Part shown: positions 3,565 to 18,462 of the stretch, one piece after another
Layout: every line of letters starts with the position of its first letter
Numbering within the stretch: position 1 is the first letter of the stretch
Translations under genes and position numbers: made by a program
NCBI RefSeq assembly: GCF_048403405.1
Contig: NZ_CP183129.1
Source: Escherichia coli
Lineage (GTDB): Bacteria; Pseudomonadota; Gammaproteobacteria; Enterobacterales; Enterobacteriaceae
DNA: 64,000 nt
Strand: one strand, 5' to 3'
Notes under the pieces: model-generated
The model's database searches: none
What the model saw: only the letters and a program-made list of their open reading frames with translations
What the model was told of the DNA's origin: nothing

Positions 3565-5565
3565 TCATCCTTGTTGCTGAAGCATGGGGAATAATTGTTC
3601 GCAAAGCAAAACACCGTTATTCATTGCTTCTACCCGTGCCTCGCTTTCTGTATTACGAAATTGTGCCAACACATGTGCCAGCCGATAAAAACCGACCGCG
3701 GTGAGGTCATTCGCCAGCAACTCTGCCTGACCAATAGCACTCTGTTCCTGATAGCGCCAGCCGTTATGGAGCAGTTGAATAAGTAACGCCTGGCAGCGCA
3801 TCAGCAACTGATGAGCGGTAGACGGCACAGGCAAAACGCTGGCAGAAGGTAGCGGTGCCACAGGCGCAGTTTCTGCGTCCAGCGCCCAGGCGCGGGTTTT
3901 TGTCATCATCACCCGTGGTTCCAGTGTCAATTGCCCCTCTACAAAGCTGACAAAGCCAGAAACCAGACTCACGGGGTCGTCTGTTTGTTGCAAAAGCGCC
4001 GCCATGCGTTCAACGGCATAAGGCGCGCTGGCTGAGGCTGGCAGTGATAACGTCAGCAGATTATCTTCACCTTCGCCGCTGATTACCTGCGCATCCAGCG
4101 TCTGGCGGCTGCTATCCCAACCGAGCGAAATACACTCAGCGACCGGCAGAATAAATAAGTTATCGACCTGATTAAGAGGCCGTATGCAGGCGGGAGGACG
4201 CTGGCGTAAATATTCCCGCAAAGCCACAATGCCCGGCTGGCGCAATGGCGCGCTCAACATTTGCCAGGCATCAGGCGACAGCGGCACAACGCTGCTTAAG
4301 CGGTTGCGGGTAGCTAACAGCAGCTCGCCATCGGCACTGCGTTTTGCTGCTTGTGAAACAATTTGCCCGCCCGCCAGTGCGCCAGCCTGAAAACTAAACA
4401 GCCGACGCGTAGCTGCCGGTGAGTTTTCCTGTTCACTTCGCGGCCAACTGCGCGAAAGGTGCAAAATACTGCCGGTGTCGGGATCGGTAAACCAGATGCG
4501 TAAACCATAATGCTCAATATCCTGCCAGCAACGCATACCTAAAGACACCAGCCGCAGATGATCAAGCTTTGCTTCTCCGGCAATGCCAGCGCCAACGACC
4601 GTGCGCCACGGCACAGGAGGAACTTCACCAACACTGTCGCGCCGGGTCATCTCTTGTGCGCAATTTAATCGACTGTTTAATGCCGCAAGCTGACGTAAGC
4701 ATTCTCCGGCATAATAGTGGCTGGCGCGGGCGTGGAAGGCATCAACGCTGGCGCGCAGTTGCCGTAGCGATTCACTCACCCATCGCCAGTTGCAGCGTTC
4801 CGCCGCCTGCTGCGCGCGGCTGAAAGCGGCCTCGTAGTGAATAAGCGGCTGGCTGATGCCGCTCAGCCATAATGCCTGGCTTAGTTGTTGAACATATTGA
4901 CGACACGTTTTGCCTTCTTCGCTGGCAAACGGATCGTCAGATGATGTGACGTGTTCGCTGCGCATCTGCCAGATTAAATGAGTCAATTCCGCTTGCTGCG
5001 CTTTTGCCTGGACAAAGGCCTGTACTGCCAGTACGACATGTTCGCAAAGTGTGCCTTCAATACAATCACAGCGTGCGAAGCGAATGCTGCTGCGGGAATA
5101 AAAACGTACATCGCTCATCGGTAAGCGGGCAGAGGGAATTTCGCCCGGCGTACAGAACAACTCAATGGTGATGCCTTTAGCGACCAGTGCCTGTGCGCGT
5201 TTGCGGGTGGCATCGGGCAGGGTAGCCAGTTCTTCCAGCCAGATTGCCGGATCCCACTCTTCTTCTTTTTCCGTAGGCTGGGTGGTGGCGCAAAGTCGCT
5301 GATAACTTAAAACCAGCATCACGCGATGGCGGCACATGCCGCTGGCCCCGCAGCTGCACTGAGCCTCTTTCAGTGCCTGACCGTTCGCCAGCTGGGTGCG
5401 GACACCGTCACTGAAGGTGGCGATTAAAGCGCCGTTCTCATGGCTGATCTCCGGGACGTTGCCATTTTCCAGTTCCTTAAGACTGCGCTTAACAAAACCG
5501 GCATTGCTTAACGCTGTCAGGGGCTGCGGTGTCAGTTCTAATAATTCCGGACGTAGTGAATTCAT
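3565..5565 (-). CDS. yehQ: SWIM zinc-finger protein YehQ
   Basis: ORF 3565..5589; start chosen at the ATG at 5565, which has a GGAGA SD and overlaps the yehP stop (ATGA). Two CxCx5CxH SWIM-like motifs (CSCGASGMCRH, CDCIEGTLCEH). Confidence 0.75.
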   Translation of the reverse strand: MNSLRPELLELTPQPLTALSNAGFVKRSLKELENGNVPEISHENGALIATFSDGVRTQLANGQALKEAQCSCGASGMCRHRVMLVLSYQRLCATTQPTEKEEEWDPAIWLEELATLPDATRKRAQALVAKGITIELFCTPGEIPSARLPMSDVRFYSRSSIRFARCDCIEGTLCEHVVLAVQAFVQAKAQQAELTHLIWQMRSEHVTSSDDPFASEEGKTCRQYVQQLSQALWLSGISQPLIHYEAAFSRAQQAAERCNWRWVSESLRQLRASVDAFHARASHYYAGECLRQLAALNSRLNCAQEMTRRDSVGEVPPVPWRTVVGAGIAGEAKLDHLRLVSLGMRCWQDIEHYGLRIWFTDPDTGSILHLSRSWPRSEQENSPAATRRLFSFQAGALAGGQIVSQAAKRSADGELLLATRNRLSSVVPLSPDAWQMLSAPLRQPGIVALREYLRQRPPACIRPLNQVDNLFILPVAECISLGWDSSRQTLDAQVISGEGEDNLLTLSLPASASAPYAVERMAALLQQTDDPVSLVSGFVSFVEGQLTLEPRVMMTKTRAWALDAETAPVAPLPSASVLPVPSTAHQLLMRCQALLIQLLHNGWRYQEQSAIGQAELLANDLTAVGFYRLAHVLAQFRNTESEARVEAMNNGVLLCEQLFPMLQQQG

Positions 5566-6698
5566 GACTGAAGATTCTCCGCAAGCCATGATGCCAGCTC
5601 GCCCGGTGTCATGGCGGCTATTTGTGCGCCGACATTAACCAGCGCCTGGGCCGTATCGTGGTCATAGCAAGGTGTTGCGGTGCTATCGAGCGCCGCCAGT
5701 CCCAGTACTTTGATGCCGCTCTGGACACACTTTTTCACCTGATGCGTCAGTAATGATGATGAACCCCCTTCATAAAAATCGCTCACGAGGATAATGACGC
5801 TTTTTGCTGTTTGTTCAATAAGTTGCCGACCATACTCTACGGCACTGGCGATATTGGTTCCGCCGCCTAATTGCACTTTCATTAATAACTCTACCGGATC
5901 GGCAACGTCGGCGGTGAGATCGACGACGCTGGTGTCAAACGCCACCAGATGGGTACGAATGCCGGGTAACTGCCATAAACAGGCCGCCATCACCGCAGAG
6001 TGGATCACCGAGTCAACCATCGATCCGCTTTGATCAACCAGTAAGACCAGTTGCCATTGATCGCTATGGCGCTTAATGCGGCTGTTAAAGCGGGGGGATT
6101 CGATATACAACTTGCCGTGTTGCGGATGCCAGTGTTGCAGGTTGGCACGCAGGGTACTTTTGAAATCGAAATTACGCGCCAGTGGAATAAATGAGCGGCG
6201 ACGGCGATCGCGGACACCAGAAAAAGCCTGGCGAACTTCCTTTGCCAGTCGCGCCATAATCTCTTCAACAACCTGGCGCACTATCCGGCGGGCGGCAGCC
6301 AGCACTTCGGGATTCATCAGATGTTTGGTGTGCAAAACGGCGCGTAGCAGGCTTTCAGAAGGCTGCATACGTTCCAGCACGTCGAGATTCGTCACCACAT
6401 CTTCAATGCCGTAGCGCAGTACGGCATCGCTTTCCAGCCGCTCAATCACCCGTTGCGGAAACAGTGTGTGAATACTGTTGATCCACTCAGGGGTGGTGAA
6501 ATTTGAGTCACCTAATCCACCGGAGCGTTCACCACGCTGGAGCCGTTCAGGATCGCGCCCATACAGCCACTCCAGCGCGTGGTCTATCTGCCGGGCGTTG
6601 TCATCCAGCCCACAAAGCGTCGTTTCTGCCGCTTCGCCAAGAATTAATCGCCAGCGTTGTAGCTCACGGGTGGTCAGAAGATCGTTCAGTTCAGACAT
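5562..6698 (-). CDS. yehP: von Willebrand factor A (VWA) domain protein YehP
   Basis: ORF 5562..6926 trimmed to the ATG at 6698 (MSELNDLLTT..., 378 aa). MIDAS-like motif DQSGSM; start overlaps the yehM stop by 8 nt. Confidence 0.85.
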   Translation of the reverse strand: MSELNDLLTTRELQRWRLILGEAAETTLCGLDDNARQIDHALEWLYGRDPERLQRGERSGGLGDSNFTTPEWINSIHTLFPQRVIERLESDAVLRYGIEDVVTNLDVLERMQPSESLLRAVLHTKHLMNPEVLAAARRIVRQVVEEIMARLAKEVRQAFSGVRDRRRRSFIPLARNFDFKSTLRANLQHWHPQHGKLYIESPRFNSRIKRHSDQWQLVLLVDQSGSMVDSVIHSAVMAACLWQLPGIRTHLVAFDTSVVDLTADVADPVELLMKVQLGGGTNIASAVEYGRQLIEQTAKSVIILVSDFYEGGSSSLLTHQVKKCVQSGIKVLGLAALDSTATPCYDHDTAQALVNVGAQIAAMTPGELASWLAENLQS

Positions 6699-8970
6699 GG
6701 AAAACTCCCCAGTGTTGCAGCGATGCCAGTGCCTGCTGTTCGAGTTGTTGATGATGTGCAATGGCTTGCGGTGGACAATGCAACGGCATTTGCAGCGCTG
6801 AAACGGGAAGCTGTGCGAGCTGGTAATGCTCAAGCACCTGATGCGCCAGCGTCCCGCGTTCTCGTGGTGGTAGCCAGGCCATCGCCGCGCGTAAATCGGG
6901 CAGGGCGTTAATAAAATCGTCGTCACTCAGTTGATTTAAATGACTACTGAAACCGGCGATAAATGCCGGCTGACAGGCCAGTTGATGGCGGGCCAGCGCC
7001 AGCAAACCGTGCAGCGCTTCGCCGGATTGTGCCGGGGATAATTGCGCCAGCATTGTCAGCGCCGCTTCGGCACTGGCGTTGGGATGTTCCAGACGCATCA
7101 GTGCGCCAAGAGCCGCGCCGCGATCCAGCGCCGGGGCATGAATCGCCTGACTGCGGCGCTCCAGTAAGGCTACCGCCGCAGAAAGCGAAACGCCGGGTAA
7201 ATTAACGCCGCTATGTAGATCGCGCAGGATATGGCAAAGCGTCTGCCAGCTATGCAGGTGAGCGTGAAACTCCTTTTCATCTGGTCTGCCGTTAGATTCA
7301 CACAGCCACAGCGTGCGATCGATAGCCGCGCATAACGTCGTTTGTAATATCTGCGCGCCTTGCATACCGCTAATTTCATCCAGCCGCCATAAGGCATATA
7401 GCACTTCCAGCGCCTGGCCCATTTCGGCAAATTGATTTTCCTGGGCGATTAATAATGTGAGTTGCTCCAATAATTGTTGACTGAAGGACGCCAGACCCGC
7501 TAACGCCGCCTGGCTAAGACATGTGGTGATGCAGCCGATTCCACCCGCGTCCAGCATATCGGCTTCTAATTTATGGCGTGCGGCTTCCTGGAGTGTTGCA
7601 CCAAAGCAGGCGGCCTCAATCAATGCCGCATGTTGGCTAAGCGGGCGGGTTAATTTCCAGCGTTCTTCACCGTTGCCTGCAAGTGTCAGTGTACTTCCCT
7701 GCTGGCGCACAACCCCTGGGATCTCCAGTATTACCAGCCGATGTAACACCTGACTTTGCGCCAGTCCATTGGAGTTAAAGCGATTTAAGGTAAGCTCCGC
7801 CGGAAGAGAGATTGCGGTACGTTCCAGTTCGCAGGTGACATCTTTTGGCAGAGGCGGTTGTGGCGTAGAAGGGGCAAGTTTACCGAATCCGTCACCCGCT
7901 AATGTGTCTATCAACGTTAGCAGAATCGGATCGGTATCGGGATGAATAACGCCGCGATAGCTCCACGGCAACGGCGCATTCAGGGCTTCTTTAATCAGCG
8001 ATCCTGCTATGGCATCCAGCCAGTCAGTGCGTAACGGTAGTGTATGACCGCGCAACTGTGCCAGTGCCATCGCATGCAGATGAGCGGCAGCCATATCCGC
8101 GGTCGAAGCAGGCAACTTGTGCTGGCGCAAACGGGTGAGAACCGTTTTTAGCAGTTGTTCTCCCGCCTGCTGTAAGCCCCACTGCCAGCACCAGTTTTGC
8201 CAGACCGGGGCAGGCATTCCTGAAAGGTATCCTGCCAGCACATCAAGGCGCTTTTCACTGTAGGGGGTGAGATAACAACCTGTAACGGCATCATCCAGTA
8301 AGAGCAATTCTGGCGTGTTAATTACCTGCAGACATTCGCGCCACATTTTTGCCAGTGCCGGAGCGTGCCAGCCACCGCAGACAACTAACACGTCGCCATT
8401 ATTTTGCTGCATCGCCCATCCAATCCAGCGGGCCATAAAGGCTTCGCGCTGACGATTGAGAGCATCTCCGGGGGAGTCGCCCCGCAGTTGGGCAAAATAG
8501 TGCGCAAGTGCAGAGGGTAATGCAGTTTGCTGGCTTTCATCTTCGAACAAGTGATCCCACAGGGTGTCGCTGTTATCCATGCGGGTGGCACGCAGCAGCA
8601 AGGTCTGGCTTTCCTCTTGCGTATCAGGCGAATCGTCCTCTTCTTCACTCTGCGCCCAGCAAGGCAAATCGATGAAGTAAGTTTGTGCCTGAATACGACG
8701 AGCGGCTTGTAGCGCCTGCCACTCCGGCGAAAATTCAGCAAATGGCGTCCAGGCACCACGCCCGGGGGCCGCACCGTCCTGATACTGGCAATAACTGTAA
8801 ATAGCTACCGGAAGCTGGTGAGCTAACAACAGTTCGTCTACCCGGTCATTAAAATCAGCCGGGCCTTCAATCAACACGTATCGTGGCCGCTGGCTTTCGA
8901 TTAACGATTTCACCAGCCGGGCGCAGGCCGGACTATGATGCCGGATGCCGACAATTAACGGCTCGCTCAT
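6691..8970 (-). CDS. yehM: uncharacterised protein YehM
   Basis: ORF 6691..9111 trimmed to the ATG at 8970 (MSEPLIVGIRHHS..., 759 aa); operon position between yehL and yehP. Confidence 0.8.
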   Translation of the reverse strand: MSEPLIVGIRHHSPACARLVKSLIESQRPRYVLIEGPADFNDRVDELLLAHQLPVAIYSYCQYQDGAAPGRGAWTPFAEFSPEWQALQAARRIQAQTYFIDLPCWAQSEEEDDSPDTQEESQTLLLRATRMDNSDTLWDHLFEDESQQTALPSALAHYFAQLRGDSPGDALNRQREAFMARWIGWAMQQNNGDVLVVCGGWHAPALAKMWRECLQVINTPELLLLDDAVTGCYLTPYSEKRLDVLAGYLSGMPAPVWQNWCWQWGLQQAGEQLLKTVLTRLRQHKLPASTADMAAAHLHAMALAQLRGHTLPLRTDWLDAIAGSLIKEALNAPLPWSYRGVIHPDTDPILLTLIDTLAGDGFGKLAPSTPQPPLPKDVTCELERTAISLPAELTLNRFNSNGLAQSQVLHRLVILEIPGVVRQQGSTLTLAGNGEERWKLTRPLSQHAALIEAACFGATLQEAARHKLEADMLDAGGIGCITTCLSQAALAGLASFSQQLLEQLTLLIAQENQFAEMGQALEVLYALWRLDEISGMQGAQILQTTLCAAIDRTLWLCESNGRPDEKEFHAHLHSWQTLCHILRDLHSGVNLPGVSLSAAVALLERRSQAIHAPALDRGAALGALMRLEHPNASAEAALTMLAQLSPAQSGEALHGLLALARHQLACQPAFIAGFSSHLNQLSDDDFINALPDLRAAMAWLPPRERGTLAHQVLEHYQLAQLPVSALQMPLHCPPQAIAHHQQLEQQALASLQHWGVFHV

Positions 8971-8980
8971 GCATCTTTCC

Positions 8981-10069
8981 TCACGGCAGGCGGTGGCGAG
9001 CTTGATAATAAGCCTGCCAGTGAGCTTCTTTATGTGTGGCGACGCGCTGTTCGAAGTAACGGCGCAGACGCGCGCGATCTTCTTCGTTATCTTTGACGAT
9101 GGTTCCGGCAATACAGTCCACCAGGTCGGCAGGCTCCCCCGCGCGATTCGCTAAAAACCAGGCGCGGACACCCACAGCATGGGCCACGTTAACGGCTTCA
9201 GCGGTGGACATAATCGCTGTCAGTGTATCCATTGACGTTTTCTTTTCGCCGTTGGCACGCAGATCGCGGAACGTGCGCACCAGTAATTCCAGTACCGCGT
9301 CAGGCACTTTATGCGGAATACCGCTATGGGCCAGCAAACGCGCCGAAGCACTGGCAACCAGTTCCAGCTCCTGGGCGAAATCCATAATCGGAAAGACAGT
9401 TTCAAAATCGAAGCGACGCTTTAGCGCAGCACTCATTTCATTGACGCCGCGATCGCGGGTATTGGCAGTGGCAATAATATTAAAGCCTTCCCGCGCATAG
9501 AGCTGACTGGCTTCACCAGTGAGTTCCGGCACCGTCATTACCCTGTCAGAAAGCATACCTAACAGACAGTCTTGTACTTCCAGCGGTGTACGCGTTATCT
9601 CTTCAAAACGGACGATTTTGCCGTCGCGCATTCCCTGGTAAAGCGGGGCAGGGACCAGCGCTTCCGTTGATGGACCATGATTGATAAGCAGAGCGTAGTT
9701 CCAGCCGTACTTGATTTGATCTTCGGTGGTAGATGCGCCGCCCTGGATGGTTAACCCGGCATCGCCGCTAATAGCGGTTGCCAGTAATTCAGACAGGAGA
9801 GATTTTGCGGTGCCAGGTTCCCCCACCAACATCAAACCGCGCCCGGTGGCAAGAGTGACTAACATACGTTCGACAGCGGAGGGACTAATCACCACTTTAC
9901 GGCTAATATTTTGCGCGCTATCGCCAAGGATAAAAGCACGGGCCGCAGGCAAACTTAACTGCCAACCGGGCGGGCAAGGTGCGTTATCATTTTGTTTTAA
10001 TTTTGCCAGTTCATCGGCGTATAACACAGCAGCAGGCGGACGCTGCAGATGATTATTCTGCGGTGACAT
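8981..10069 (-). CDS. yehL: MoxR-like AAA+ ATPase YehL
   Basis: ORF 8981..10135 trimmed to the ATG at 10069 (MSPQNNHLQ..., 362 aa). Walker A GEPGTAKS; Walker B-like IVRFEE. Confidence 0.85.
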   Translation of the reverse strand: MSPQNNHLQRPPAAVLYADELAKLKQNDNAPCPPGWQLSLPAARAFILGDSAQNISRKVVISPSAVERMLVTLATGRGLMLVGEPGTAKSLLSELLATAISGDAGLTIQGGASTTEDQIKYGWNYALLINHGPSTEALVPAPLYQGMRDGKIVRFEEITRTPLEVQDCLLGMLSDRVMTVPELTGEASQLYAREGFNIIATANTRDRGVNEMSAALKRRFDFETVFPIMDFAQELELVASASARLLAHSGIPHKVPDAVLELLVRTFRDLRANGEKKTSMDTLTAIMSTAEAVNVAHAVGVRAWFLANRAGEPADLVDCIAGTIVKDNEEDRARLRRYFEQRVATHKEAHWQAYYQARHRLP

Positions 10070-10180
10070 ATATTCATCCCTGAAATGTATTAATGAAATA
10101 AACGATATTTTACGCGCAATAAATGTTTGGCGCATTAGTTGTTTGAGCGAAAAATATCTGGAAAGCAGATCACAGTAAAT

Positions 10181-10204
10181 AAAAAAACCTGCTGGTGAGG
10201 CAGG
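10181..10204 (-). terminator. rho-independent terminator of the OrzO-like sRNA
   Basis: Hairpin cctgc-tggtgag-gcagg (10188-10204) flanked on the plus strand by aaaaaaa (10181-10187), i.e. a 7-U tract after the hairpin on the minus strand. Confidence 0.65.
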
Positions 10205-10263
10205 TTCTTTTATTTACTATTTTCAGGCCCAACACCGCAGCCTGTGCAACATCGTGTTCCAAC
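10181..10263 (-). ncRNA. orzO: OrzO-like antisense sRNA (type I antitoxin), divergent from the zorO-like toxin gene
   Basis: Minus-strand promoter TTGCAA (10293-10298), 17-nt spacer, TATAAT (10270-10275); roughly 85-nt transcript ending at the terminator. Its 5' region is the reverse complement (19/20) of a leader segment of the downstream toxin mRNA. Confidence 0.6.
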
Positions 10264-10269
10264 GAACGA

Positions 10270-10409: not shown

Positions 10410-10429
10410 GTGCAACATCGTGGTCCAAC
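10410..10429 (+). promoter_or_regulatory. predicted sRNA target site in the zorO-like leader
   Basis: gtgcaacatcgtggtccaac is a direct repeat (19/20) of 10244-10263, the region transcribed on the opposite strand as the sRNA 5' end. Confidence 0.55.
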
Positions 10430-10501
10430 ATACGTAAACCAGTATCGACAGGCAGTGTAAGGGTAAGGTGCTGGTGTTGCGCTCCTTAATAAGGAGAGCG
10501 G

Positions 10502-10591
10502 ATGGACACGCTGACACAAAAGTTAACCGTGCTCATTGCCGTACTGGAGCTATTAGTGGCTCTGTTACGGTTGATTGATTTGTTGAAGTAA
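10502..10591 (+). CDS. zorO: 29-aa hydrophobic type I toxin, ZorO-like
   Basis: Not in the ORF track (below its size cut-off). ATG at 10502 with AGGAG SD at 10492-10496; peptide MDTLTQKLTVLIAVLELLVALLRLIDLLK; roughly 175-nt leader; matches my recollection of ZorO from EHEC. Confidence 0.7.
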   Translation: MDTLTQKLTVLIAVLELLVALLRLIDLLK

Positions 10592-11025: not shown

Positions 11026-14000
11026 TTAATGGAAAATGACGTCGGGTGCGCTTAACGCTTCACTCAAATCAAACACATCAAGTTCGGCAAAAGTGACAGA
11101 TTTATTGTCACGGTATACATGAAGAGAACGGAAGCTCATTAGCGCTTTGCTATCAACATTGTAGTGGTTAAAACCGGATGAAAACTTAAGGACCAGCCGG
11201 TACTCGCCCAGGTCATAGACAAATGCATTCTCATAGCCTGACTCCCAGCCTTTGTATCGCATTCCCATAAGTTGCCCAACGGTAGCAGATTTACCTTCCC
11301 AGCGATTCAAACTATTACTGGCTGACTCGTCAGGCGTGAGCAGTACTGTGCGCCGTGCCAATTGGCGAAAAGGCGGCATAATTTCGTAATCGGCAAAAAG
11401 CTGTGCAAACTCACTGCGCATTTCTGCTGCCATTTCTAACGGGTGGGCAATGCCAATCAGAGCATCGGCAGGCAGGTCAATTGGCTCATCTTGCTCATTG
11501 CAGAACTCCCCCTCAGCGGCCACACGAAAGGCGTTGAGTAAACGACGCGGTTCATTTGCCGGATAAACACCCCATATTAATCGCTGAGTAACCAGACGGG
11601 TAAAGGGATGATTAACAAACAGAGAATGAAAATCTGCCAGCGACCAGCGTCGGGTGGTGCGCAGGGCAGTTTCAAGACGCGGGAGCAGGTTTTTGCTCAC
11701 CTGAGTGGCATCTTTTTTTAGCCCTTTTAGTCGGGCCAGTGCCTCGGGTGCTTTCAGTTGATCGTCATCGGCGCGCAACCGGGGAACGCTTTTCTGGCGA
11801 ACGTTTTGCTGATCAAAGATAACCGGGTTAAGGTTTTCATCGAAGCGAACGGTAAATTGCCGTGGACCAAAATCAAAAATCAACGCCTGCGGATCATCAA
11901 GACCCAGTGTTGGGACTAATCTGTCCGCTAACTGTTCCTGGCTTAGCCCTCGATTTTCTGCGACCACCTGAAGAAATTCCGCCGCGTTATCACGTAAGGG
12001 GCGGGATTTCGCCCGTTGCGATATATGATGCAGCTGTATCAGTGCCATATCATTATTCATCTGAGTAAGTATGTTCAGGCCGCTGACGGCACGGGCAGAT
12101 TTGCCTTCCTGTGGCCAGGCAAGGATCTGTGTCGTCAGATCCCGTGCCGTGCTTTCGTCGCCAAAGAGACTTAACGCCAGAAATGCCCAGTTGTCTTTTG
12201 CGGGAGCACCAGCTTGTTGCCACGCGGTGAAAAGATCCCAGGCAAAAGCTGCCAGCGTTTGCGGCTGGCAGAAAGTTTTCAGTTGTTCCAGTCCGCTATA
12301 AAAACGTCCGCCCTGGGTAAAGCGCAGCATTTCGCCGATAATTTCCAGTGCGTCATCGGTAACAGGCTGATTATTCGTGATAAGGCGCGGCCTGGACCAC
12401 ATTGCCGGCTGCCAGAAATCAGGGGCTTTTGGAATGCGTGTCGGGTAAATCTCTATTGGACTCTGTTTAAGTAAATGCTCCAGGGCAGGCCATACATCTG
12501 TACGCTGCCAGCGGTTTGCCGCGGTTTGCAGCAATTCACCATGTCCCTGTTCGTAAAGTAAACGTAGGGCAAGTAATGCAGCTTCGCTATTATCGCTGGA
12601 TTTGGTGAAGACAAGAGGGATAAGTGCAGTAGCCGTATGTTCCGGCCATTGTAAAATCCACTGGCGAGCCAGATCACGCTGCGCCGCGAAACGTCGCCAG
12701 ACGCGGGCAACGGGCAGGGCCAGTTCTGTTGCGCCAAAATTTAAAATTAACGGAAATGTTTCTTTTGGACGATATGAAAAAGCCAACAGCAGACCTGGTA
12801 GAGCATCCAATCCGAAGATACTGAGAAAATAGTCCTCACCCGCGAACAGATGCTTTTTCTCATTGATACGTAGCCAGAAAGTCAAAGCCATCTCACGCGG
12901 CAACTGTGCCAATAAATACAGGTTCCAGATACTCTTTTCCCGACGATAGCGTGAGTAGCTGTCATTTTCCCATATGTTAATTAACACTTCTACGTGACCG
13001 CTGCGAAGCGCCTGTTCTGCTAATTGTGCTTCCGGGGAGTTCCAGCCATTCAGGATCTCTTCAACCCGCCCCTGGTAGTAATGCCACTGAACAATGAGTG
13101 AATTGCGTGCAGCATCCAGTTTTCCGGGGAGTATATAATTCAGAAACAGCCATACATCATCTCCAAAACCCAGCTCCTGTAGTACAACTCGTCCACTTTT
13201 ATGTTCCATGCGTTCCGCAAGAGATTCCGTGCTGAAATAACGGGCAGACTCAGTGGCGGCAAGCCTCTCTCGTTCGCCTGGTTGCCAGTAAACTTGCGGC
13301 GTTAATTCGAACGGTGCCAAATCAAGACGTGGAACTGTCATTTTTTTCTTACTACGCCACGGTGGTGAAACGAGGATTTCAGGCATTTGGCTGTTATCGG
13401 TGCTATCAATAACCGTTTTAGGCGGTGCCGATAAATAACTATTCAGCACTGACCGGGCTTGAGTACTTAACCACGGCATCACCTCTTCTGCCAGTTGTGG
13501 CTGCGATGCCATCAGCGTTTGTAACAGCGTACGCCAGTATTCATCACGTGCTTTTTGCTGTGCAGGCAGCTTTTTGTCTTCGATGATTGGATAACCAGGG
13601 CGCGTAGGTGGTTCTTTTAGCGCCAGCAGTTCTGCCAGTGCGGCAAGCGTCGCATGGGGGAAATTTTTACTGTATTTAGCTACACGTTGCAGGCTGGGTT
13701 TGTTTTTATCAGCAACTAACAGCAGGGTGCGGATGACCTGCGGATGGTTAATTTGTACCAGCAGACTGCCGCAATCTTCTTTATGGGCATACATTGCCAG
13801 GCGTGGAACGGCTGCCAGTCCTTGTTCGCGCAAAAGGGCAGCGCAGGCCGCGTAGCCGAAGTGGTTTTCATGCGACATGTAGCTGGCTTCCCGATCGCTA
13901 AATATATCCTGGCTCCAGTAGCGTTCGAGTTTTCTCACCGCTCTGGGGTCAATAGCAACAACTTTTAACCACTCCTTAGAATGAAAATGAGTCCACGGGC

Positions 14001-14658
14001 ATTCAAGGCTTACCAACTCATTGGCGATTTCTGGTTTTTCCGGGAGGATCAGAGCAATAAAAGGGCGGCGAACTTTGGTTATTCCTGGCAGTGCGGCAAT
14101 GAGTTTGTCGGCGCAACGCTGCCAGCTGCTTTCCTCTGCCAGAGAGAGATGCTTACGCAGTCGGAGATCGAATTCGTTATAGGTTTCTGATCGATAACCA
14201 TAGCCATAATCCTCGTTCTGATACTGCAATGTCACTAGCAGAGGATCACTTTCATAACATCGTGTAATAAACTGGCGTGCAATCACCACCTCAGTCGCAT
14301 ATTCCAGTCCCTCTTGTTGGACGATTTCGTCGAGCAACTGTTGGCTATCATTTTGCGCGATACAGGCTAGCGCCGCCATTGTCCGGGCCGGAACTGAGGG
14401 TTTGTGTTCGCCAATCAAGTTGATGGCCTGCGTAATGGCCGACTGCCACTCCAGTGAAAAATTTTCATAACGCCAGACAATGTTTTTTTTCTTCTCAGCT
14501 TTTTGTAGCAATTCATCACCCAGTGTCTGGATGAGGCTTTCAGTGATAACAGGCACCGGTTCGCCCGGCCAACTGCGATGGCTGAGCGGCGTTTTGCCTT
14601 TTTTATATTTCAGTTCCACTTGGGCGTTATCCGCCAGCCACGGTAATTCCTTGTCCAT
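11026..14658 (-). CDS. yehI: DUF4132-family giant protein YehI (1210 aa)
   Basis: Full ORF from the track. C-terminal region shares motifs with the two upstream paralogs (DFGPRQFTV, HPLEM..FAQLFADYEIMPPFRQL); no N-terminal WGR domain. Confidence 0.85.
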   Translation of the reverse strand: MDKELPWLADNAQVELKYKKGKTPLSHRSWPGEPVPVITESLIQTLGDELLQKAEKKKNIVWRYENFSLEWQSAITQAINLIGEHKPSVPARTMAALACIAQNDSQQLLDEIVQQEGLEYATEVVIARQFITRCYESDPLLVTLQYQNEDYGYGYRSETYNEFDLRLRKHLSLAEESSWQRCADKLIAALPGITKVRRPFIALILPEKPEIANELVSLECPWTHFHSKEWLKVVAIDPRAVRKLERYWSQDIFSDREASYMSHENHFGYAACAALLREQGLAAVPRLAMYAHKEDCGSLLVQINHPQVIRTLLLVADKNKPSLQRVAKYSKNFPHATLAALAELLALKEPPTRPGYPIIEDKKLPAQQKARDEYWRTLLQTLMASQPQLAEEVMPWLSTQARSVLNSYLSAPPKTVIDSTDNSQMPEILVSPPWRSKKKMTVPRLDLAPFELTPQVYWQPGERERLAATESARYFSTESLAERMEHKSGRVVLQELGFGDDVWLFLNYILPGKLDAARNSLIVQWHYYQGRVEEILNGWNSPEAQLAEQALRSGHVEVLINIWENDSYSRYRREKSIWNLYLLAQLPREMALTFWLRINEKKHLFAGEDYFLSIFGLDALPGLLLAFSYRPKETFPLILNFGATELALPVARVWRRFAAQRDLARQWILQWPEHTATALIPLVFTKSSDNSEAALLALRLLYEQGHGELLQTAANRWQRTDVWPALEHLLKQSPIEIYPTRIPKAPDFWQPAMWSRPRLITNNQPVTDDALEIIGEMLRFTQGGRFYSGLEQLKTFCQPQTLAAFAWDLFTAWQQAGAPAKDNWAFLALSLFGDESTARDLTTQILAWPQEGKSARAVSGLNILTQMNNDMALIQLHHISQRAKSRPLRDNAAEFLQVVAENRGLSQEQLADRLVPTLGLDDPQALIFDFGPRQFTVRFDENLNPVIFDQQNVRQKSVPRLRADDDQLKAPEALARLKGLKKDATQVSKNLLPRLETALRTTRRWSLADFHSLFVNHPFTRLVTQRLIWGVYPANEPRRLLNAFRVAAEGEFCNEQDEPIDLPADALIGIAHPLEMAAEMRSEFAQLFADYEIMPPFRQLARRTVLLTPDESASNSLNRWEGKSATVGQLMGMRYKGWESGYENAFVYDLGEYRLVLKFSSGFNHYNVDSKALMSFRSLHVYRDNKSVTFAELDVFDLSEALSAPDVIFH

Positions 14659-14667
14659 GCTCTTTCC

Positions 14668-17600
14668 TTATTCAAACAGGGCTTCAATATCGTTAATGAG
14701 TTCGCTGGCGGTGATGTCGTCGAGCACGGAGAACTGCGCTTCCTGAGTTGAATTACTCCCCCAGCCATAGCTTTCCGCTTTGCCTTCCCATAGCCACAGC
14801 TTGCTTAAGACCTGCTCAGCGCTAAGATCGGCTGGTGACATACCCACCGCAAAACCTTCGTCGATTTCCATGATTAACGACCAGCGACCGAGAGGTTTGA
14901 TCATCCATCCGATCCAGCCTCCATCCTGTGGTTCGCCCTTTATCCAGCCTTTATTTGCCAGCCCCATGACCCGGCCGCTCGGGCATTTTCTGCCTGCCCA
15001 GCGGGTCAGTTCGCTGGCGTTGCGCTCGGCTTCTGTCAGGGCGTAACTGTTACGTTCAAGCTGACGGAACGGTGGTAGCAGTTCGTAGTCGGCAAAAAGC
15101 TGACCAAAGGCGACAGCATCCGTCGGTGATATTTCCAGAACGTGAGGAATGCCAACAGAGATATCGCCTTCCTGCAAGGTGAAAAGATCATCGTCAGCGG
15201 TGCTGTAGCTGTTATCTTCCGCCACCCTAAAGCACGCCTGTAGCTGGTTTTCGGCGCTATAAACGCCCCAAATCAGACGGCGGGTTAAGTGACGAACCAG
15301 CGGATGCTCAACCAGGAAGAGCTGAAAGTTTTCCGGCGACCAGCGGCGGCGCAGGCACATGGCGGATTCCAGCCTTGCTACCTGCTGGGCGGCGACGGTA
15401 CGCGCATCTTTTTTCAGCAATTTGTAGCGGTTAACAGCATCGTTTGCCTGTGATTCATCATCGCTTTTATTGGGTTTAGGTAAGTCTTTCAGGCGGCTGC
15501 CGGAAACATCGCGCACAAACGGTTTTAAGGTTTCATCAAAGCTGACGGTGAACTGCCGTGGGCCAAAATCCAGCAGCAGCGAACCGTTATCATCCAGACC
15601 GAGAGCCGGTGCTAACCGATCTTCAAGCTCCGCTACCGTCAGTTCGCGACTTTCGGCAATGTCGGCAATTTTCTCTTTCGCCCGCTCCTGTAATGCTTTG
15701 AATTTCAGTTTCTGGGCAATGCCGTTAAGCTGCATCAGGGCGATATCACTACTGATAGCGGCGAGGATATCCAGCCCGACGGTGGCGCGTTTATGCTGGG
15801 ATTCACCAGGCCAGGCGCGTATTAATGGCGTCAGTTTGCGGGCGGTGTCATCGTTACCGAGAACGCCTAACGCAGTGAACGCCCAACTCTCTTTCGACGG
15901 CGCGCCAGCGGTCTGCCAGGCGGTAAACAGATCCCAGGCAAATTCAGCCAGTGAGTCGGCGGTACAGGCATCTTTCACCTGCAATAATCCCGGATACAGC
16001 GCCTCCTCCTGATGGAAGCGGAGCATTTCACCGAGGTGCTGGAGTGCGCTATCGGGCAGTGATTGGGCATTTGCTTTTAATACCGGGCGGGTCCAGATCG
16101 ATGGCTGATAAAAGGCCGGAAGAGTGGGGATTTTTGTCGGGTGATTATCTAAGGGATCGAGCGCAAGCATAGCGTTCACCGCATCTGTTACTTCCGGCTG
16201 GTTATAACGCCGGGCGATTTCTTGCAGTAATGGTTGATGACCGTTTTCGGTAAGCATACGCAATGCAGCGCGGGCGTTATCCTGTGCTTCACCGGCTTTG
16301 CCGAGCGCCGCAGACAGCAGGCCGGTAATGGCGTGTTCCGGGTATTTCAGCAGCCAGGTGCGGGCGTCTTGTCGTAGGGTTTTGAGTTTGTTGAAGGCGC
16401 GGGCGACGGCAGGTGCCAGCTCACTCGCTGCGAAGTAATTCGTTATGGGCAAGGCTTCCTGTGGATAGCGTGCAAGTGAGTTTACTAACCCAGGTAATCC
16501 TTTGAGTCCAAAATGTAACATGGCGTATTCGGTATCGGTATGCGGAGATAGAGTAAGGGCATTCCATGCTCTTACTGCTTTCTCCAGCGGCAATGTTGTC
16601 AAAATCCCCAAATGCCAATAATGCCCGGTAGGTGAATGAAACACCTTAAATTCACTTATTAAAGTTGAATAATCTTCATTTAGCCATGCCTCAACTACCG
16701 CTTCGGGAGCTTTAATATATGTACCAGCGATCCGTCGTTGAAAACCCATCCTTGCCAACAGATTGGCAGTACTTTCTTCATGACTAACCGTGATGTGTTT
16801 TGAATACCAGATATATTTCGCCAAAAGTTGATTACTGATTTCTTCTGTCAGATAACTGATTGGCTCAATACCTAATGGTGCTAAATCAAGCACTGGAATC
16901 GGCGATTTTTTCTTTTTCGAAAGCCATGGTGGGGAGACTACTATGGCCGGCAGTAGATCGGCGCTGGCATGGTTTGAGGGCTGTGTCAGTTGTTGCTGGC
17001 ATGATTTCAGCACTGCAACTGCGGGTGTCGAAAGCCAGGGAATGACCTGTTCTGCTAGTGTCGGTTGCGAGATAAGCATCGTCATTAGCATAATGCGCCA
17101 ACTATTCTCTTCTTTTTGCACTAGAAGTTCCGCCAGTGCTGCCAGTGCTGCGTGTGGGAACGCAGCGCAGGCTTTCGTCATTCGATCGTGACAGCGTTTA
17201 GTATGCCCTGCTACACGTATAAGCAGTGTTAATGCGAACGGATGATTGATATGACGCAACACATCGGCGCAGTAGTCACTTGCGACATAGGGAGCAAATC
17301 GGGGCAGGGCCGCAACACCTTGCTCCTGTAATACGGTGGCTGACCATATCGCACCACAATAGTAATCATCAAAAATGGCATATGGCTCGTGATATTTTTC
17401 TAATGAGGCAAGAATGTGCTCATCAGTCGCCACTATTTTTAGCCACTCCAGCGAGGGTAATTTCTTTTGCCCCAGTAGACGCTGGGCAATTTCATGTGCA
17501 ATTTCTGGTTTTTCGGGCAATAACAAAGCAATTAATGGTTGCCGCCATTCTGGAATATGTGGAACTGCGGCAATAAGTTTTTGTGCACATTTTTGCCAGA

Positions 17601-18462
17601 GAGACTCTTCCGCCAGTGATAAATGTTTACGTAGGCGTAATTCAAAGCTGGAATATTGCTGCAAATAATCAGGTGAAATGCCAGACGACAGGAAAACAAT
17701 ATTATTGTTGACATAATCCCATTCAATAGATATTTGTTGAAGATGTATTATTACATCAGTAGCATATTCCAGACCGCCTTCCTGAATAATCTGATCCATA
17801 ACATCCGCACGCTCTTTATATCTCGTGCAGTGCAGTTCAAGTGCCGCGAGTACAGCCATTACCGGTGATGGTAATTTTGTCGTTTTCGGGCTGTTAATCA
17901 GATCGATCGCCTGAGCGATGAAGTTTTGCCACTCTAAAGTACAGGCGCTGAAGTCAAATGTAGCTGTTTTGTTATCCCGTTGCGACACGCCACAGGCTAA
18001 GCGACGTAACTGGGTTAATTTATCTACAGGTGTAACAGGATCTCCGGGAAAGCGGCGATGGCTTAAGGTGGTGGGTACGACTTCAAGCGGAAAAACGACA
18101 GCAATATCTTTTGCCAGCCACGGTAAAATAACGTCTGTATTTTTGTCAGCCACGTAGAATTCTGGTGTAACTGAGGGCTGTTCCTGAATGATGGTAGAAA
18201 AGTCAGATAATTCGAGAGATTTCGTTACCGTTCGAGTATGTTTCGATGTAGCATTCTCCGCATGTTCCACATACCCCTTTTTCGTTTTCTCCGCAATCAG
18301 CTTGAGTTCCGCTTTTTCCGCCGCCGCAGCATCTGCAAAGCTTTTTACCTGACTTTGCCCGTTGGTGCCGACTTTGCCCCAACTGATATTCAGTTCGTTT
18401 CCCTGCTGCTCCACCGCCCAGAATTTATGTGATTTTTCGTCCTGATAAATATAGGTTTTCAT
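14668..18462 (-). CDS. MolR-like giant protein, N-terminal WGR domain plus DUF4132 (1264 aa)
   Basis: N-terminus MKTYIYQDEKSHKFWAVEQQGNELNISWGKVGTNGQ (WGR signature); C-terminal DUF4132-like region; 9-nt gap to yehI. Confidence 0.85.
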   Translation of the reverse strand: MKTYIYQDEKSHKFWAVEQQGNELNISWGKVGTNGQSQVKSFADAAAAEKAELKLIAEKTKKGYVEHAENATSKHTRTVTKSLELSDFSTIIQEQPSVTPEFYVADKNTDVILPWLAKDIAVVFPLEVVPTTLSHRRFPGDPVTPVDKLTQLRRLACGVSQRDNKTATFDFSACTLEWQNFIAQAIDLINSPKTTKLPSPVMAVLAALELHCTRYKERADVMDQIIQEGGLEYATDVIIHLQQISIEWDYVNNNIVFLSSGISPDYLQQYSSFELRLRKHLSLAEESLWQKCAQKLIAAVPHIPEWRQPLIALLLPEKPEIAHEIAQRLLGQKKLPSLEWLKIVATDEHILASLEKYHEPYAIFDDYYCGAIWSATVLQEQGVAALPRFAPYVASDYCADVLRHINHPFALTLLIRVAGHTKRCHDRMTKACAAFPHAALAALAELLVQKEENSWRIMLMTMLISQPTLAEQVIPWLSTPAVAVLKSCQQQLTQPSNHASADLLPAIVVSPPWLSKKKKSPIPVLDLAPLGIEPISYLTEEISNQLLAKYIWYSKHITVSHEESTANLLARMGFQRRIAGTYIKAPEAVVEAWLNEDYSTLISEFKVFHSPTGHYWHLGILTTLPLEKAVRAWNALTLSPHTDTEYAMLHFGLKGLPGLVNSLARYPQEALPITNYFAASELAPAVARAFNKLKTLRQDARTWLLKYPEHAITGLLSAALGKAGEAQDNARAALRMLTENGHQPLLQEIARRYNQPEVTDAVNAMLALDPLDNHPTKIPTLPAFYQPSIWTRPVLKANAQSLPDSALQHLGEMLRFHQEEALYPGLLQVKDACTADSLAEFAWDLFTAWQTAGAPSKESWAFTALGVLGNDDTARKLTPLIRAWPGESQHKRATVGLDILAAISSDIALMQLNGIAQKLKFKALQERAKEKIADIAESRELTVAELEDRLAPALGLDDNGSLLLDFGPRQFTVSFDETLKPFVRDVSGSRLKDLPKPNKSDDESQANDAVNRYKLLKKDARTVAAQQVARLESAMCLRRRWSPENFQLFLVEHPLVRHLTRRLIWGVYSAENQLQACFRVAEDNSYSTADDDLFTLQEGDISVGIPHVLEISPTDAVAFGQLFADYELLPPFRQLERNSYALTEAERNASELTRWAGRKCPSGRVMGLANKGWIKGEPQDGGWIGWMIKPLGRWSLIMEIDEGFAVGMSPADLSAEQVLSKLWLWEGKAESYGWGSNSTQEAQFSVLDDITASELINDIEALFE

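What the first reader, a model, noticed from the sequence alone, without database searches (positions are those of the whole stretch)
8981..10069. YehL Walker B region reads IVRFEE rather than the usual hhhhDE
Aligned by eye to the MoxR Walker B (for example VFLDEI in RavA), YehL has Glu-Glu where Asp-Glu is expected. If the alignment is right, Mg2+ coordination may be altered, which would suggest a slow or regulatory ATPase. The alignment was done without software and could be wrong.
Basis: inference. Interest (0 to 1): 0.25.

Follow-up and report, generated by a model that had tools for sequence, protein, structure and literature searches.

The report
YehL ATPase has Glu-Glu Walker B
The E. 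coli MoxR-type ATPase YehL does carry Glu-Glu where nearly all related ATPases have Asp-Glu in the magnesium-binding Walker B motif, and this is a conserved signature of its whole protein family, not a defect, so it is a modest biochemical curiosity whose effect on catalysis is untested.

Summary
The region 8981-10069 (minus strand) is E. coli yehL, 362 aa. Its only Walker B candidate is I152-V-R-F-E-E157. BLASTP and hhalign against E. coli RavA place FEEI on LDEI, and phmmer against midasin AAA modules does the same. AlphaFold2 puts residues 152-156 in the strand that follows the P-loop helix region. The only Asp-Glu in the protein (D19-E20) lies upstream of Walker A.

Glu-Glu is not an E. 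coli oddity. 239 of 247 homologues down to about 33% identity have it. One has DE, one is a degenerate copy, and six look like frameshift errors. R154, K89, S/T90, N203 and R218/R219 are also nearly invariant.

A second, actinobacterial MoxR lineage is also fixed for EE. Five of the six other MoxR proteins sampled, and RavA, have DE.

Active ATPases with Glu at this position are already known, for example AAV Rep68 with E378/E379.

The most likely reading is a selected, functional Walker B variant in an active, partner-dependent MoxR ATPase. YehL sits in a conserved cassette with DUF5682, a CoxE-like VWA protein and a SWIM protein. "Slow or regulatory ATPase" remains an untested guess. Interest is low to moderate.

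The parts
8981..10069 (-). yehL CDS, 362 aa MoxR-class AAA+ ATPase (AAA_5)
   Evidence: ORF; 100% identical to annotated yehL in several E. coli genomes and present in 5218 of 5426 genomes; Pfam AAA_5 E = 1.6e-34; Foldseek top hits are NorQ and CbbQ
9800..9823 (-). Walker A / P-loop GEPGTAKS (aa 83-90; K89, S90)
   Evidence: K89 in 220 of 224 aligned homologues and S/T90 in 222 of 227
9599..9616 (-). Walker B IVRFEE (aa 152-157): E156 replaces the canonical Asp; E157 is the catalytic Glu; R154 is an unusual buried-strand Arg
   Evidence: Aligned to RavA IVFLDE and midasin LDE; strand 152-156 in the AF2 model; EE in 239 of 247 and R154 in 243 of 247 homologues
9602..9604 (-). codon GAA = E156, the Glu at the Walker B Asp position
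   Evidence: one transversion away from Asp, yet E in 241 of 247 homologues
9743..9745 (-). Q109 at the end of strand beta2, near-invariant; candidate 'glutamate switch' partner (inference only)
   Evidence: Invariant in alignment A1; 229 of 232 aligned; strand 107-109
9461..9463 (-). sensor-1 Asn N203 (IATAN)
   Evidence: End of strand 197-203; N in 223 of 229 aligned; aligns with N of other MoxR proteins
9413..9418 (-). R218-R219 (ALKRRF), Arg-finger region
   Evidence: R in 216 of 221 and 215 of 220 aligned; aligns with ALKRRC / ALKNRF of other MoxR proteins
6691..8970 (-). yehM, DUF5682 protein, next gene in the operon
   Evidence: Pfam DUF5682 E = 1.2e-96; follows the YehL homologue in Paenibacillus, Aquisphaera, Polyangium and Methylosinus
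5562..6698 (-). yehP, CoxE-like VWA protein with a DQSGS MIDAS motif; expected partner of the MoxR ATPase
   Evidence: Pfam VWA_CoxE E = 4.1e-71; DxSxS at aa 222; conserved downstream of DUF5682 in other phyla
3565..5565 (-). yehQ, SWIM zinc-finger protein, last gene of the cassette
   Evidence: Pfam SWIM E = 6.8e-08; a SWIM protein sits at the head of the cassette in Paenibacillus and Methylosinus

Best explanation
YehL is a genuine MoxR-class AAA+ ATPase whose Walker B motif is a selected family-wide variant, h-h-R-h-E-E, instead of h-h-h-h-D-E. In this reading E157 is the usual catalytic glutamate. E156 takes over the job of the Walker B aspartate, holding the Mg2+ water shell and hydrogen-bonding the Walker A Ser90 through a side chain one methylene longer. 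The site is therefore remodelled, not disabled. YehL would still bind and hydrolyse Mg-ATP as a hexamer, using sensor-1 N203 and an Arg finger (R218/R219) from the neighbouring subunit. Basal turnover would probably be low, as is typical of MoxR enzymes, and it would act with its VWA partner YehP plus YehM (DUF5682) and YehQ (SWIM).

Shown: the motif, its alignment, its conservation, the fold and the conserved gene cassette.
Inferred: the roles of E156 and R154, hexamer formation, ATPase activity and partner dependence.
For: - Alignment of FEE to LDE by BLASTP, hhalign and phmmer.
- High-confidence AF2 model with strand 152-156, and Foldseek top hits NorQ and CbbQ at target TM-score about 0.8.
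- EE in 239 of 247 homologues down to about 33% identity, with K89, S/T90, N203, R218/R219 and R160 co-conserved.
- All 119 additional 90%-identity clusters are EE.
- E and D codons differ by one base, and E/D is normally a freely tolerated exchange, so retaining Glu implies selection.
- The one homologue that lost the catalytic Glu (P0081, 'FEALGR') also lost sensor-1 and the Arg finger. That is what real decay looks like, unlike YehL.
- An independent actinobacterial MoxR lineage next to a VWA gene is fixed for FLY[VI]EEFNR in 119 of 120 close relatives.
- Precedent for active enzymes: AAV2 Rep68 Walker B E378/E379 near Mg2+ (PMC11780844) and the SF3 helicase Glu(WB)-Asp pair (PMC9599734).
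- The MoxR-DUF5682-VWA_CoxE cassette with a SWIM protein is conserved in Firmicutes, Planctomycetes, Myxobacteria and Alphaproteobacteria, so the ATPase is part of a maintained machine.
Against: - No biochemical data on YehL or any EE-type MoxR protein were found.
- The Walker B Asp is 'almost strictly conserved' across P-loop NTPases (PMC9599734), so the change could carry a real kinetic cost.
- Conservation shows function, not turnover rate. A conserved nucleotide-binding switch would look the same.
- yehL-yehM are H-NS/StpA-silenced in K-12 (PMC3686432), so in vivo activity conditions are unknown.
Confidence: 0.65

Rival explanations
1. One reading: the longer Glu distorts Mg2+ coordination, so YehL is a very slow, switch-like ATPase whose nucleotide state, more than its turnover, regulates the YehM/YehP/YehQ complex.
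For: The Walker B Asp is almost strictly conserved in P-loop NTPases (PMC9599734). A near-invariant Arg (R154) sits two residues upstream in the normally hydrophobic strand and could hold E156 in an off state. MoxR ATPases are slow even when canonical: NorQ turns over 13 per min per hexamer (PMC13036017).
Against: All hydrolysis-specific residues (E157, N203, R218/R219) are as conserved as the binding residues, which is not expected if hydrolysis were dispensable. Active EE enzymes exist, such as AAV Rep68. One natural family member carries DE with everything else unchanged (P0048), so the two forms seem interchangeable in this scaffold.
Confidence: 0.2
2. The Glu-for-Asp change retunes cofactor specificity, for example a different divalent metal or a nucleotide other than ATP, as in the AAA_5 relative McrB, which is a GTPase.
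For: YehL belongs to the AAA_5 group, which includes the GTPase McrB (weak hits). A longer carboxylate changes the size of the metal site (inference).
Against: There is no sequence evidence for altered base recognition. McrB itself keeps Asp-Glu (established knowledge). Nothing in the cassette points to a particular metal.
Confidence: 0.1
3. The alignment is wrong or the residue is a strain-specific mutation: a canonical Asp-Glu Walker B lies elsewhere, or this E. coli allele is decaying.
For: The original alignment was made by eye. The locus is H-NS-silenced.
Against: Three independent alignment methods and the AF2 strand assignment agree. The only DE dipeptide is at residues 19-20, before Walker A. 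EE is found in 239 of 247 homologues across phyla. yehL is present in 5218 of 5426 E. coli genomes.
Confidence: 0.02

Closest known systems
MoxR AAA+ ATPases of the CbbQ/GvpN/NorQ group (PdNorQ 9qh4/9qh9, AfCbbQ2 6l1q, cso-CbbQ 5c3c)
   Same: Best structural matches (Foldseek E about 1e-12, target TM-score about 0.8). Shared AAA_5 core, helix-2 insert, pre-sensor-1 hairpin, sensor-1 Asn and Arg finger, and an adjacent VWA partner gene. E157 corresponds to NorQ E109.
   Different: NorQ has Asp-Glu (D108-E109); YehL has Glu-Glu with an Arg at position -2. YehL adds a conserved N-terminal region of about 60 residues and a longer C-terminal helical region. Its partners are DUF5682 and SWIM proteins, and no known client enzyme has been identified.
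   Same: The other MoxR ATPase of E. coli K-12 (PMC3893208). It aligns from Walker A through sensor 1 and also pairs with a VWA protein, ViaA.
   Different: RavA reads IVFLDEIWK and YehL reads IVRFEEITR. Identity is only about 24% over the core. RavA has a LARA domain and known partners (LdcI, Nuo), whereas YehL has none known.
Actinobacterial MoxR lineage represented by Rhodococcus ruber pmega_1 WP_342661679 (Pfam bpMoxR/AAA_5/AAA_3)
   Same: Closest non-YehL hit in plasmids (E = 7e-11). It also has a Glu-Glu Walker B, FLYVEEFNR, fixed in 119 of 120 close relatives, and sits next to a VWA gene.
   Different: It is 316 aa, has Tyr instead of Arg at position -2, keeps the Asn of DEINR (YehL has Thr), and has no DUF5682 or SWIM neighbours.
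SF3 helicases, for example AAV2 Rep68/Rep40
   Same: ASCE P-loop ATPases with Glu at the Walker B Asp position. Rep68 Walker B residues E378 and E379 sit at Mg2+-coordinating distance in a catalytically competent state (PMC11780844; PMC9599734).
   Different: A different AAA+-related clade with a different C-terminal domain topology. These are DNA helicases of viruses and are not MoxR homologues in any close sense. The resemblance is in the chemistry of the motif only.

Membership tests
AAA+ ATPase, MoxR class (Pfam AAA_5, helix-2-insert clade) | Significant match to the AAA_5 / MoxR-type profile across the whole ATPase core | tested here: met
   PF07728 AAA_5 E = 1.6e-34, 119 bits against a cutoff of 22, residues 79-220 on profile positions 2-139 of 139
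AAA+ ATPase, MoxR class (Pfam AAA_5, helix-2-insert clade) | Walker A GxxxxGK[ST] | tested here: met
   GEPGTAKS at residues 83-90; Lys and Ser/Thr near-invariant in the family
AAA+ ATPase, MoxR class (Pfam AAA_5, helix-2-insert clade) | Walker B catalytic Glu at the C-terminal end of strand beta3 | tested here: met
   E157 aligns with the Glu of RavA LDE, midasin LDE and NorQ E109; strand 152-156; E in 240 of 247 homologues
AAA+ ATPase, MoxR class (Pfam AAA_5, helix-2-insert clade) | Walker B Asp preceding the catalytic Glu (strict hhhhDE) | tested here: not met
   E156 (GAA) occupies the Asp position, and R154 breaks the hydrophobic run. This is the reason for filing YehL as a variant, not a canonical MoxR site. 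An acidic residue is retained.
AAA+ ATPase, MoxR class (Pfam AAA_5, helix-2-insert clade) | Sensor-1 polar residue and Arg finger | tested here: met
   N203 at the end of strand 197-203; R218/R219 in ALKRRF align with other MoxR proteins
AAA+ ATPase, MoxR class (Pfam AAA_5, helix-2-insert clade) | Helix-2 insert and pre-sensor-1 beta-hairpin | tested here: met
   The AF2 secondary structure shows extra strands 121-123 and 138-140 between beta2 and beta3, and 177-179 and 189-191 between alpha3 and beta4. This rests on secondary structure only, because coordinates were not inspected.
AAA+ ATPase, MoxR class (Pfam AAA_5, helix-2-insert clade) | Fold similarity to solved MoxR structures | tested here: met
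   Foldseek PDB ranks 1-19 are NorQ and CbbQ, E down to 5.8e-13, target TM-score 0.70-0.83
AAA+ ATPase, MoxR class (Pfam AAA_5, helix-2-insert clade) | Genomic pairing with a VWA-domain protein | tested here: met
   yehP is VWA_CoxE (E = 4.1e-71) with a DQSGS MIDAS motif, two genes downstream; the pairing is conserved in other phyla
AAA+ ATPase, MoxR class (Pfam AAA_5, helix-2-insert clade) | Hexameric assembly and Mg-ATP hydrolysis | not testable with these tools
   No biochemical data found
YehL subfamily of MoxR (Snider & Houry classification, as cited in PMC3893208) | Orthology to E. coli K-12 YehL, the subfamily's namesake | tested here: met
   The window gene is annotated yehL in RefSeq genomes at 95-100% DNA identity; PMC3893208 names YehL as the E. 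coli member of the YehL subfamily
PADLOC anti-phage defence systems | Match to any known or candidate defence protein model | tested here: not met
   No PADLOC hit for YehL, YehM, YehP or YehI at E <= 0.01

The most novel reading that the evidence does not exclude
The R-h-E-E motif is a mechanistically distinct nucleotide site. The buried, invariant R154 would pair with the elongated E156 to hold the Mg2+ ligand away from the P-loop until a partner (the YehP VWA domain or YehM) engages. Hydrolysis in the widespread but uncharacterised SWIM-DUF5691/HEAT-MoxR-DUF5682-VWA cassette would then be gated from inside the Walker B strand itself, a control mode not described for AAA+ proteins.
Probability: 0.1. 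Interest if true: 0.5.

Novelty: new variant of a known kind. Interest (0 to 1): 0.25.

Why it matters
YehL is one of only two MoxR ATPases in E. coli K-12 and gives its name to one of the seven MoxR subfamilies, yet it has no known function. Three consequences follow from knowing that its Walker B is a conserved Arg-x-Glu-Glu variant, shared by thousands of homologues and by a second MoxR lineage.

- It provides a simple sequence signature for the subfamily.
- It warns against annotating these proteins as inactive. The standard trapping mutation should target E157, not a non-existent Asp-Glu pair.
- It offers a natural test of how strictly the Walker B aspartate is required in AAA+ enzymes.

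The effect on catalysis is unknown, and the change is chemically conservative, so the significance is modest.

Tried and rejected
- **A canonical Asp-Glu elsewhere.** The only DE is D19-E20, upstream of Walker A. Rejected.
- **A strain-specific mutation or pseudogene.** Rejected by family-wide conservation and by core-gene status in E. coli.
- **A defence-system assignment.** No PADLOC hits for YehL, YehM, YehP or YehI.
- **Literature.**
  - Snider & Houry 2006 and Wong & Houry 2012 are not held, so I could not check whether their alignments already show or discuss EE.
  - Kaur et al. 2020 (PMC7159879) does not mention YehL, DUF4132, SWIM or bpMoxR in its main text.
  - Searches for yehL/M/P/Q, DUF5682 and 'YehL subfamily' returned only passing mentions.
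  - The MSMEG_0748 paper concerns a canonical CoxD-like MoxR protein and adds nothing on EE.
- **Pfam bpMoxR (PF20030).** It is only sub-threshold for E. coli YehL (18.6 bits against a cutoff of 27, residues 51-102), so I do not file YehL there.
- **Geometry of E156, R154 and S90.** It could not be measured, because model coordinates are not exposed by the tools.
- **Residue-level alignment to NorQ.** It could not be printed, because the five midasin sequences occupy the alignment slots. I used match offsets instead.
- **Position of the D/E switch in MoxR phylogeny.** Only the best 120-150 hits of each large search are listed, so this was sampled only through plasmid-borne outgroups.

Full report
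**What is at the coordinates**

- The window is E. coli chromosome.
- Positions 8981-10069 on the minus strand are exactly the yehL coding sequence, stop codon included. It is 100% identical to annotated yehL in several RefSeq genomes.
- The gene is present in 5218 of 5426 complete E. coli genomes.
- The 362-aa product matches Pfam AAA_5 end to end (E = 1.6e-34, residues 79-220).
- PMC3893208 names YehL as the E. coli member of the YehL subfamily of MoxR AAA+ ATPases.

**Checking the observation**

The motifs and their coordinates:

| Feature | Residues | Window coordinates |
|---|---|---|
| Walker A GEPGTAKS | 83-90 | 9800-9823 |
| Walker B IVRFEE | 152-157 | 9599-9616 |
| E156 (GAA) | 156 | 9602-9604 |
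| E157 (GAG) | 157 | 9599-9601 |

- BLASTP of YehL against E. coli RavA (fetched from MG1655) aligns KIVRFEEITR with EIVFLDEIWK.
- hhalign of a 25-sequence family profile against RavA gives the same register.
- phmmer against PDB chains puts FEEI on LDEI in several midasin AAA modules.
- The coordinates of the NorQ match (query 139 = chain 91) place E157 on PdNorQ E109. That is the residue changed in the published E109Q Walker B mutant (PMC13036017).

An AlphaFold2 model built on the family alignment is confident (pLDDT 91.8, pTM 0.89). It makes 152-156 a beta strand, in the position expected for beta3. Its best PDB matches are the MoxR proteins NorQ and CbbQ, with target TM-score about 0.8.

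**Family trait or E. coli quirk?**

- An exhaustive HMMER search of 1.84 billion cluster representatives found 194 clusters at E <= 1e-30.
- A profile search of the 90%-identity database hit its ceiling of 8000 scored candidates, all significant. Named members include Planctomycetes, Myxobacteria, Paenibacillus and Acidobacteria.
- I aligned all 269 retrieved sequences to the family HMM. 247 of them cover the motif.
- 239 of those 247 have Glu-Glu.
- The eight exceptions are one with Asp-Glu (P0048), one degenerate copy (P0081) and six with arginine-rich junk between otherwise intact motifs, which look like local frameshift errors.
- P0081 reads FEALGR and has also lost sensor-1 and the Arg finger.
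- The Arg at position -2 (R154) is present in 243 of 247.
- K89, S/T90, Q109, R160, N203 and R218/R219 are equally conserved.
- Glu and Asp codons differ by one base, and this exchange is usually tolerated. Retaining Glu down to about 33% identity therefore indicates selection for Glu itself.

**How unusual it is among relatives**

tblastn of YehL against plasmids shows a sharp break. Full-length hits of at least 38% identity form the YehL family, and the two distant members checked, from Fusobacterium and Methylosinus, are EE. Below that come partial hits of about 30% identity to other MoxR proteins.

I examined six such outgroup proteins plus RavA:

| Protein | Walker B region | Type |
|---|---|---|
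| Tsukamurella MoxR | LLIDEADK | DE |
| Halobaculum MoxR | LLIDEVDR | DE |
| Bacillus velezensis MoxR | LYIDEINM | DE |
| Rhodococcus pyridinivorans AAA | LLFDEVNR | DE |
| Rhodococcus sp. NJ-530 AAA | LLIDEINR | DE |
| E. coli RavA | VFLDEIWK | DE |
| Rhodococcus ruber pmega_1 MoxR | FLYVEEFNR | EE |

- The R. ruber protein is 316 aa, sits next to a small VWA gene, and is the closest outgroup hit.
- Its 120 nearest 90%-identity clusters come from Gordonia, Williamsia, Geodermatophilus, Modestobacter and Pseudonocardia. 119 of them have EE.
- Glu-Glu is therefore fixed in at least two MoxR lineages.
- The Arg at -2 is specific to the YehL family, because the actinobacterial lineage has Tyr there.

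**What is known about Glu at this position**

- A survey of more than 3000 P-loop NTPase structures states that the Walker B Asp is almost strictly conserved and that its role is performed by Glu 'only in several cases'.
- The cases it describes include SF3 helicases, with a Glu(WB)-Asp pair, and VirB/PilT-like ATPases (PMC9599734).
- In the cryo-EM structure of AAV2 Rep68, Walker B residues E378 and E379 lie at Mg2+-coordinating distance in catalytically competent subunits (PMC11780844).
- A Glu-Glu Walker B is therefore rare but compatible with a vigorous ATPase.

**Gene context**

- In the window the order is yehL, yehM, yehP, yehQ:

  | Gene | Pfam match | E-value |
  |---|---|---|
  | yehM | DUF5682 | 1.2e-96 |
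  | yehP | VWA_CoxE | 4.1e-71 |
  | yehQ | SWIM | 6.8e-08 |

- YehP has an intact DQSGS MIDAS motif.
- Three DUF4132 giants lie upstream, two of them with WGR domains.
- The core MoxR-DUF5682-VWA_CoxE is preceded by a protein of about 480 aa and a HEAT-like protein of about 600 aa in Paenibacillus, Aquisphaera and Polyangium. The 480-aa protein is SWIM-positive only in Paenibacillus.
- A Methylosinus plasmid carries SWIM, DUF5691, the YehL-like AAA ATPase and DUF5682 in the same order.
- No PADLOC defence model matches any component.
[quoted passage not shown] The upstream region in the window is correspondingly low in GC, about 0.39.

**Most likely mechanism (inference)**

YehL probably works like other MoxR ATPases. 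It would form a hexameric ring that binds Mg-ATP between subunits and hydrolyses it using E157, N203 and an Arg finger from the neighbouring subunit. It would act on or through its VWA partner.

E156 would substitute for the Walker B Asp in the Mg2+/Ser90 network, using a longer side chain. R154, and possibly Q109 at the end of beta2, are candidates for compensating or regulatory contacts.

- I put about 0.65 on 'active enzyme with a remodelled but functional site'.
- I put about 0.1 on altered metal or nucleotide preference.
- Misalignment or decay is essentially excluded.

None of the kinetic claims can be tested here.

**Comparison with known families, and novelty**

- It departs from the canonical definition only at the Walker B Asp and at the hydrophobic residue at -2.
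- The gene and its subfamily are already catalogued.
- I found no discussion of the EE signature in the searchable literature. The original subfamily paper could not be read, so prior notice cannot be excluded.
- I rate it a new variant of a known kind, of low to moderate interest. The substitution is conservative, has precedent in active enzymes, and has unknown functional consequence.

Noticed in passing
window 10181-10256 (-), 10502-10591 (+), repeats 10244-10268 and 10410-10434: The 575-bp yehK-yehL intergenic region holds a zorO-orzO type I toxin-antitoxin locus. Rfam OrzO-P matches at 101 bits against a gathering score of 60. A 29-aa ORF, MDTLTQKLTVLIAVLELLVALLRLIDLLK, matches the size reported for the ZorO toxin (PMC6669753, PMC3919570). 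A 25-nt direct repeat (88% identical) is placed so that the antisense sRNA could pair with the toxin 5' UTR. Only one orz copy scored above threshold, whereas the described EHEC locus is duplicated.
   Followed up: partly
L003 6770-14682; L004 6659-14700; L005 6592-14787; L013 5175-11334: A five-gene cassette is conserved across Firmicutes, Planctomycetes, Myxobacteria and Alphaproteobacteria: a protein of about 480 aa (SWIM-annotated in Paenibacillus and Methylosinus), a HEAT-like/DUF5691 protein, a YehL-type MoxR ATPase, DUF5682 and VWA_CoxE. It has no known function and no PADLOC match. In E. coli the SWIM protein YehQ lies at the 3' end instead.
   Followed up: partly
L007 347-1297 (Rhodococcus ruber plasmid pmega_1); P0270-P0389: A second MoxR lineage (about 316 aa, next to a small VWA gene, Pfam bpMoxR/AAA_5/AAA_3) also has a fixed Glu-Glu Walker B, FLY[VI]EEFNR, in 119 of 120 close relatives from Actinobacteria. 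The sampled relatives are all at least 69% identical, so the depth of this lineage is unknown.
   Followed up: partly
window 9608-9610 (-), R154 of YehL: A near-invariant Arg (243 of 247) sits at position -2 of the Walker B strand, where AAA+ proteins normally have a hydrophobic residue. It is kept even in the one homologue that has Asp-Glu (P0048). Its contacts could not be examined.
   Followed up: no
window 11026-14658, 14668-18462, 18475-22272 (all minus strand): Three tandem genes for proteins of about 1210-1265 aa with C-terminal DUF4132 lie upstream of yehK. Two have N-terminal WGR domains. The molR (yehH) reading frame is intact here, whereas it is described as disrupted in K-12 (PMC3950696).
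   Followed up: no
P0081 and P0048 (homologues): P0081 is a YehL-family copy that has lost the catalytic Glu (FEALGR), sensor-1 (ATCTTYK) and the Arg finger (ALQGHMN), so it is probably an inactive paralogue. P0048 is the only family member seen with canonical Asp-Glu (IVRIDELSRI).
   Followed up: no
window 10070-10135 (-): The yehL reading frame stays open upstream to an ATG at 10135, which would give 384 aa. RefSeq annotates the start at 10069 (362 aa). The family alignment begins near the shorter start.
   Followed up: no
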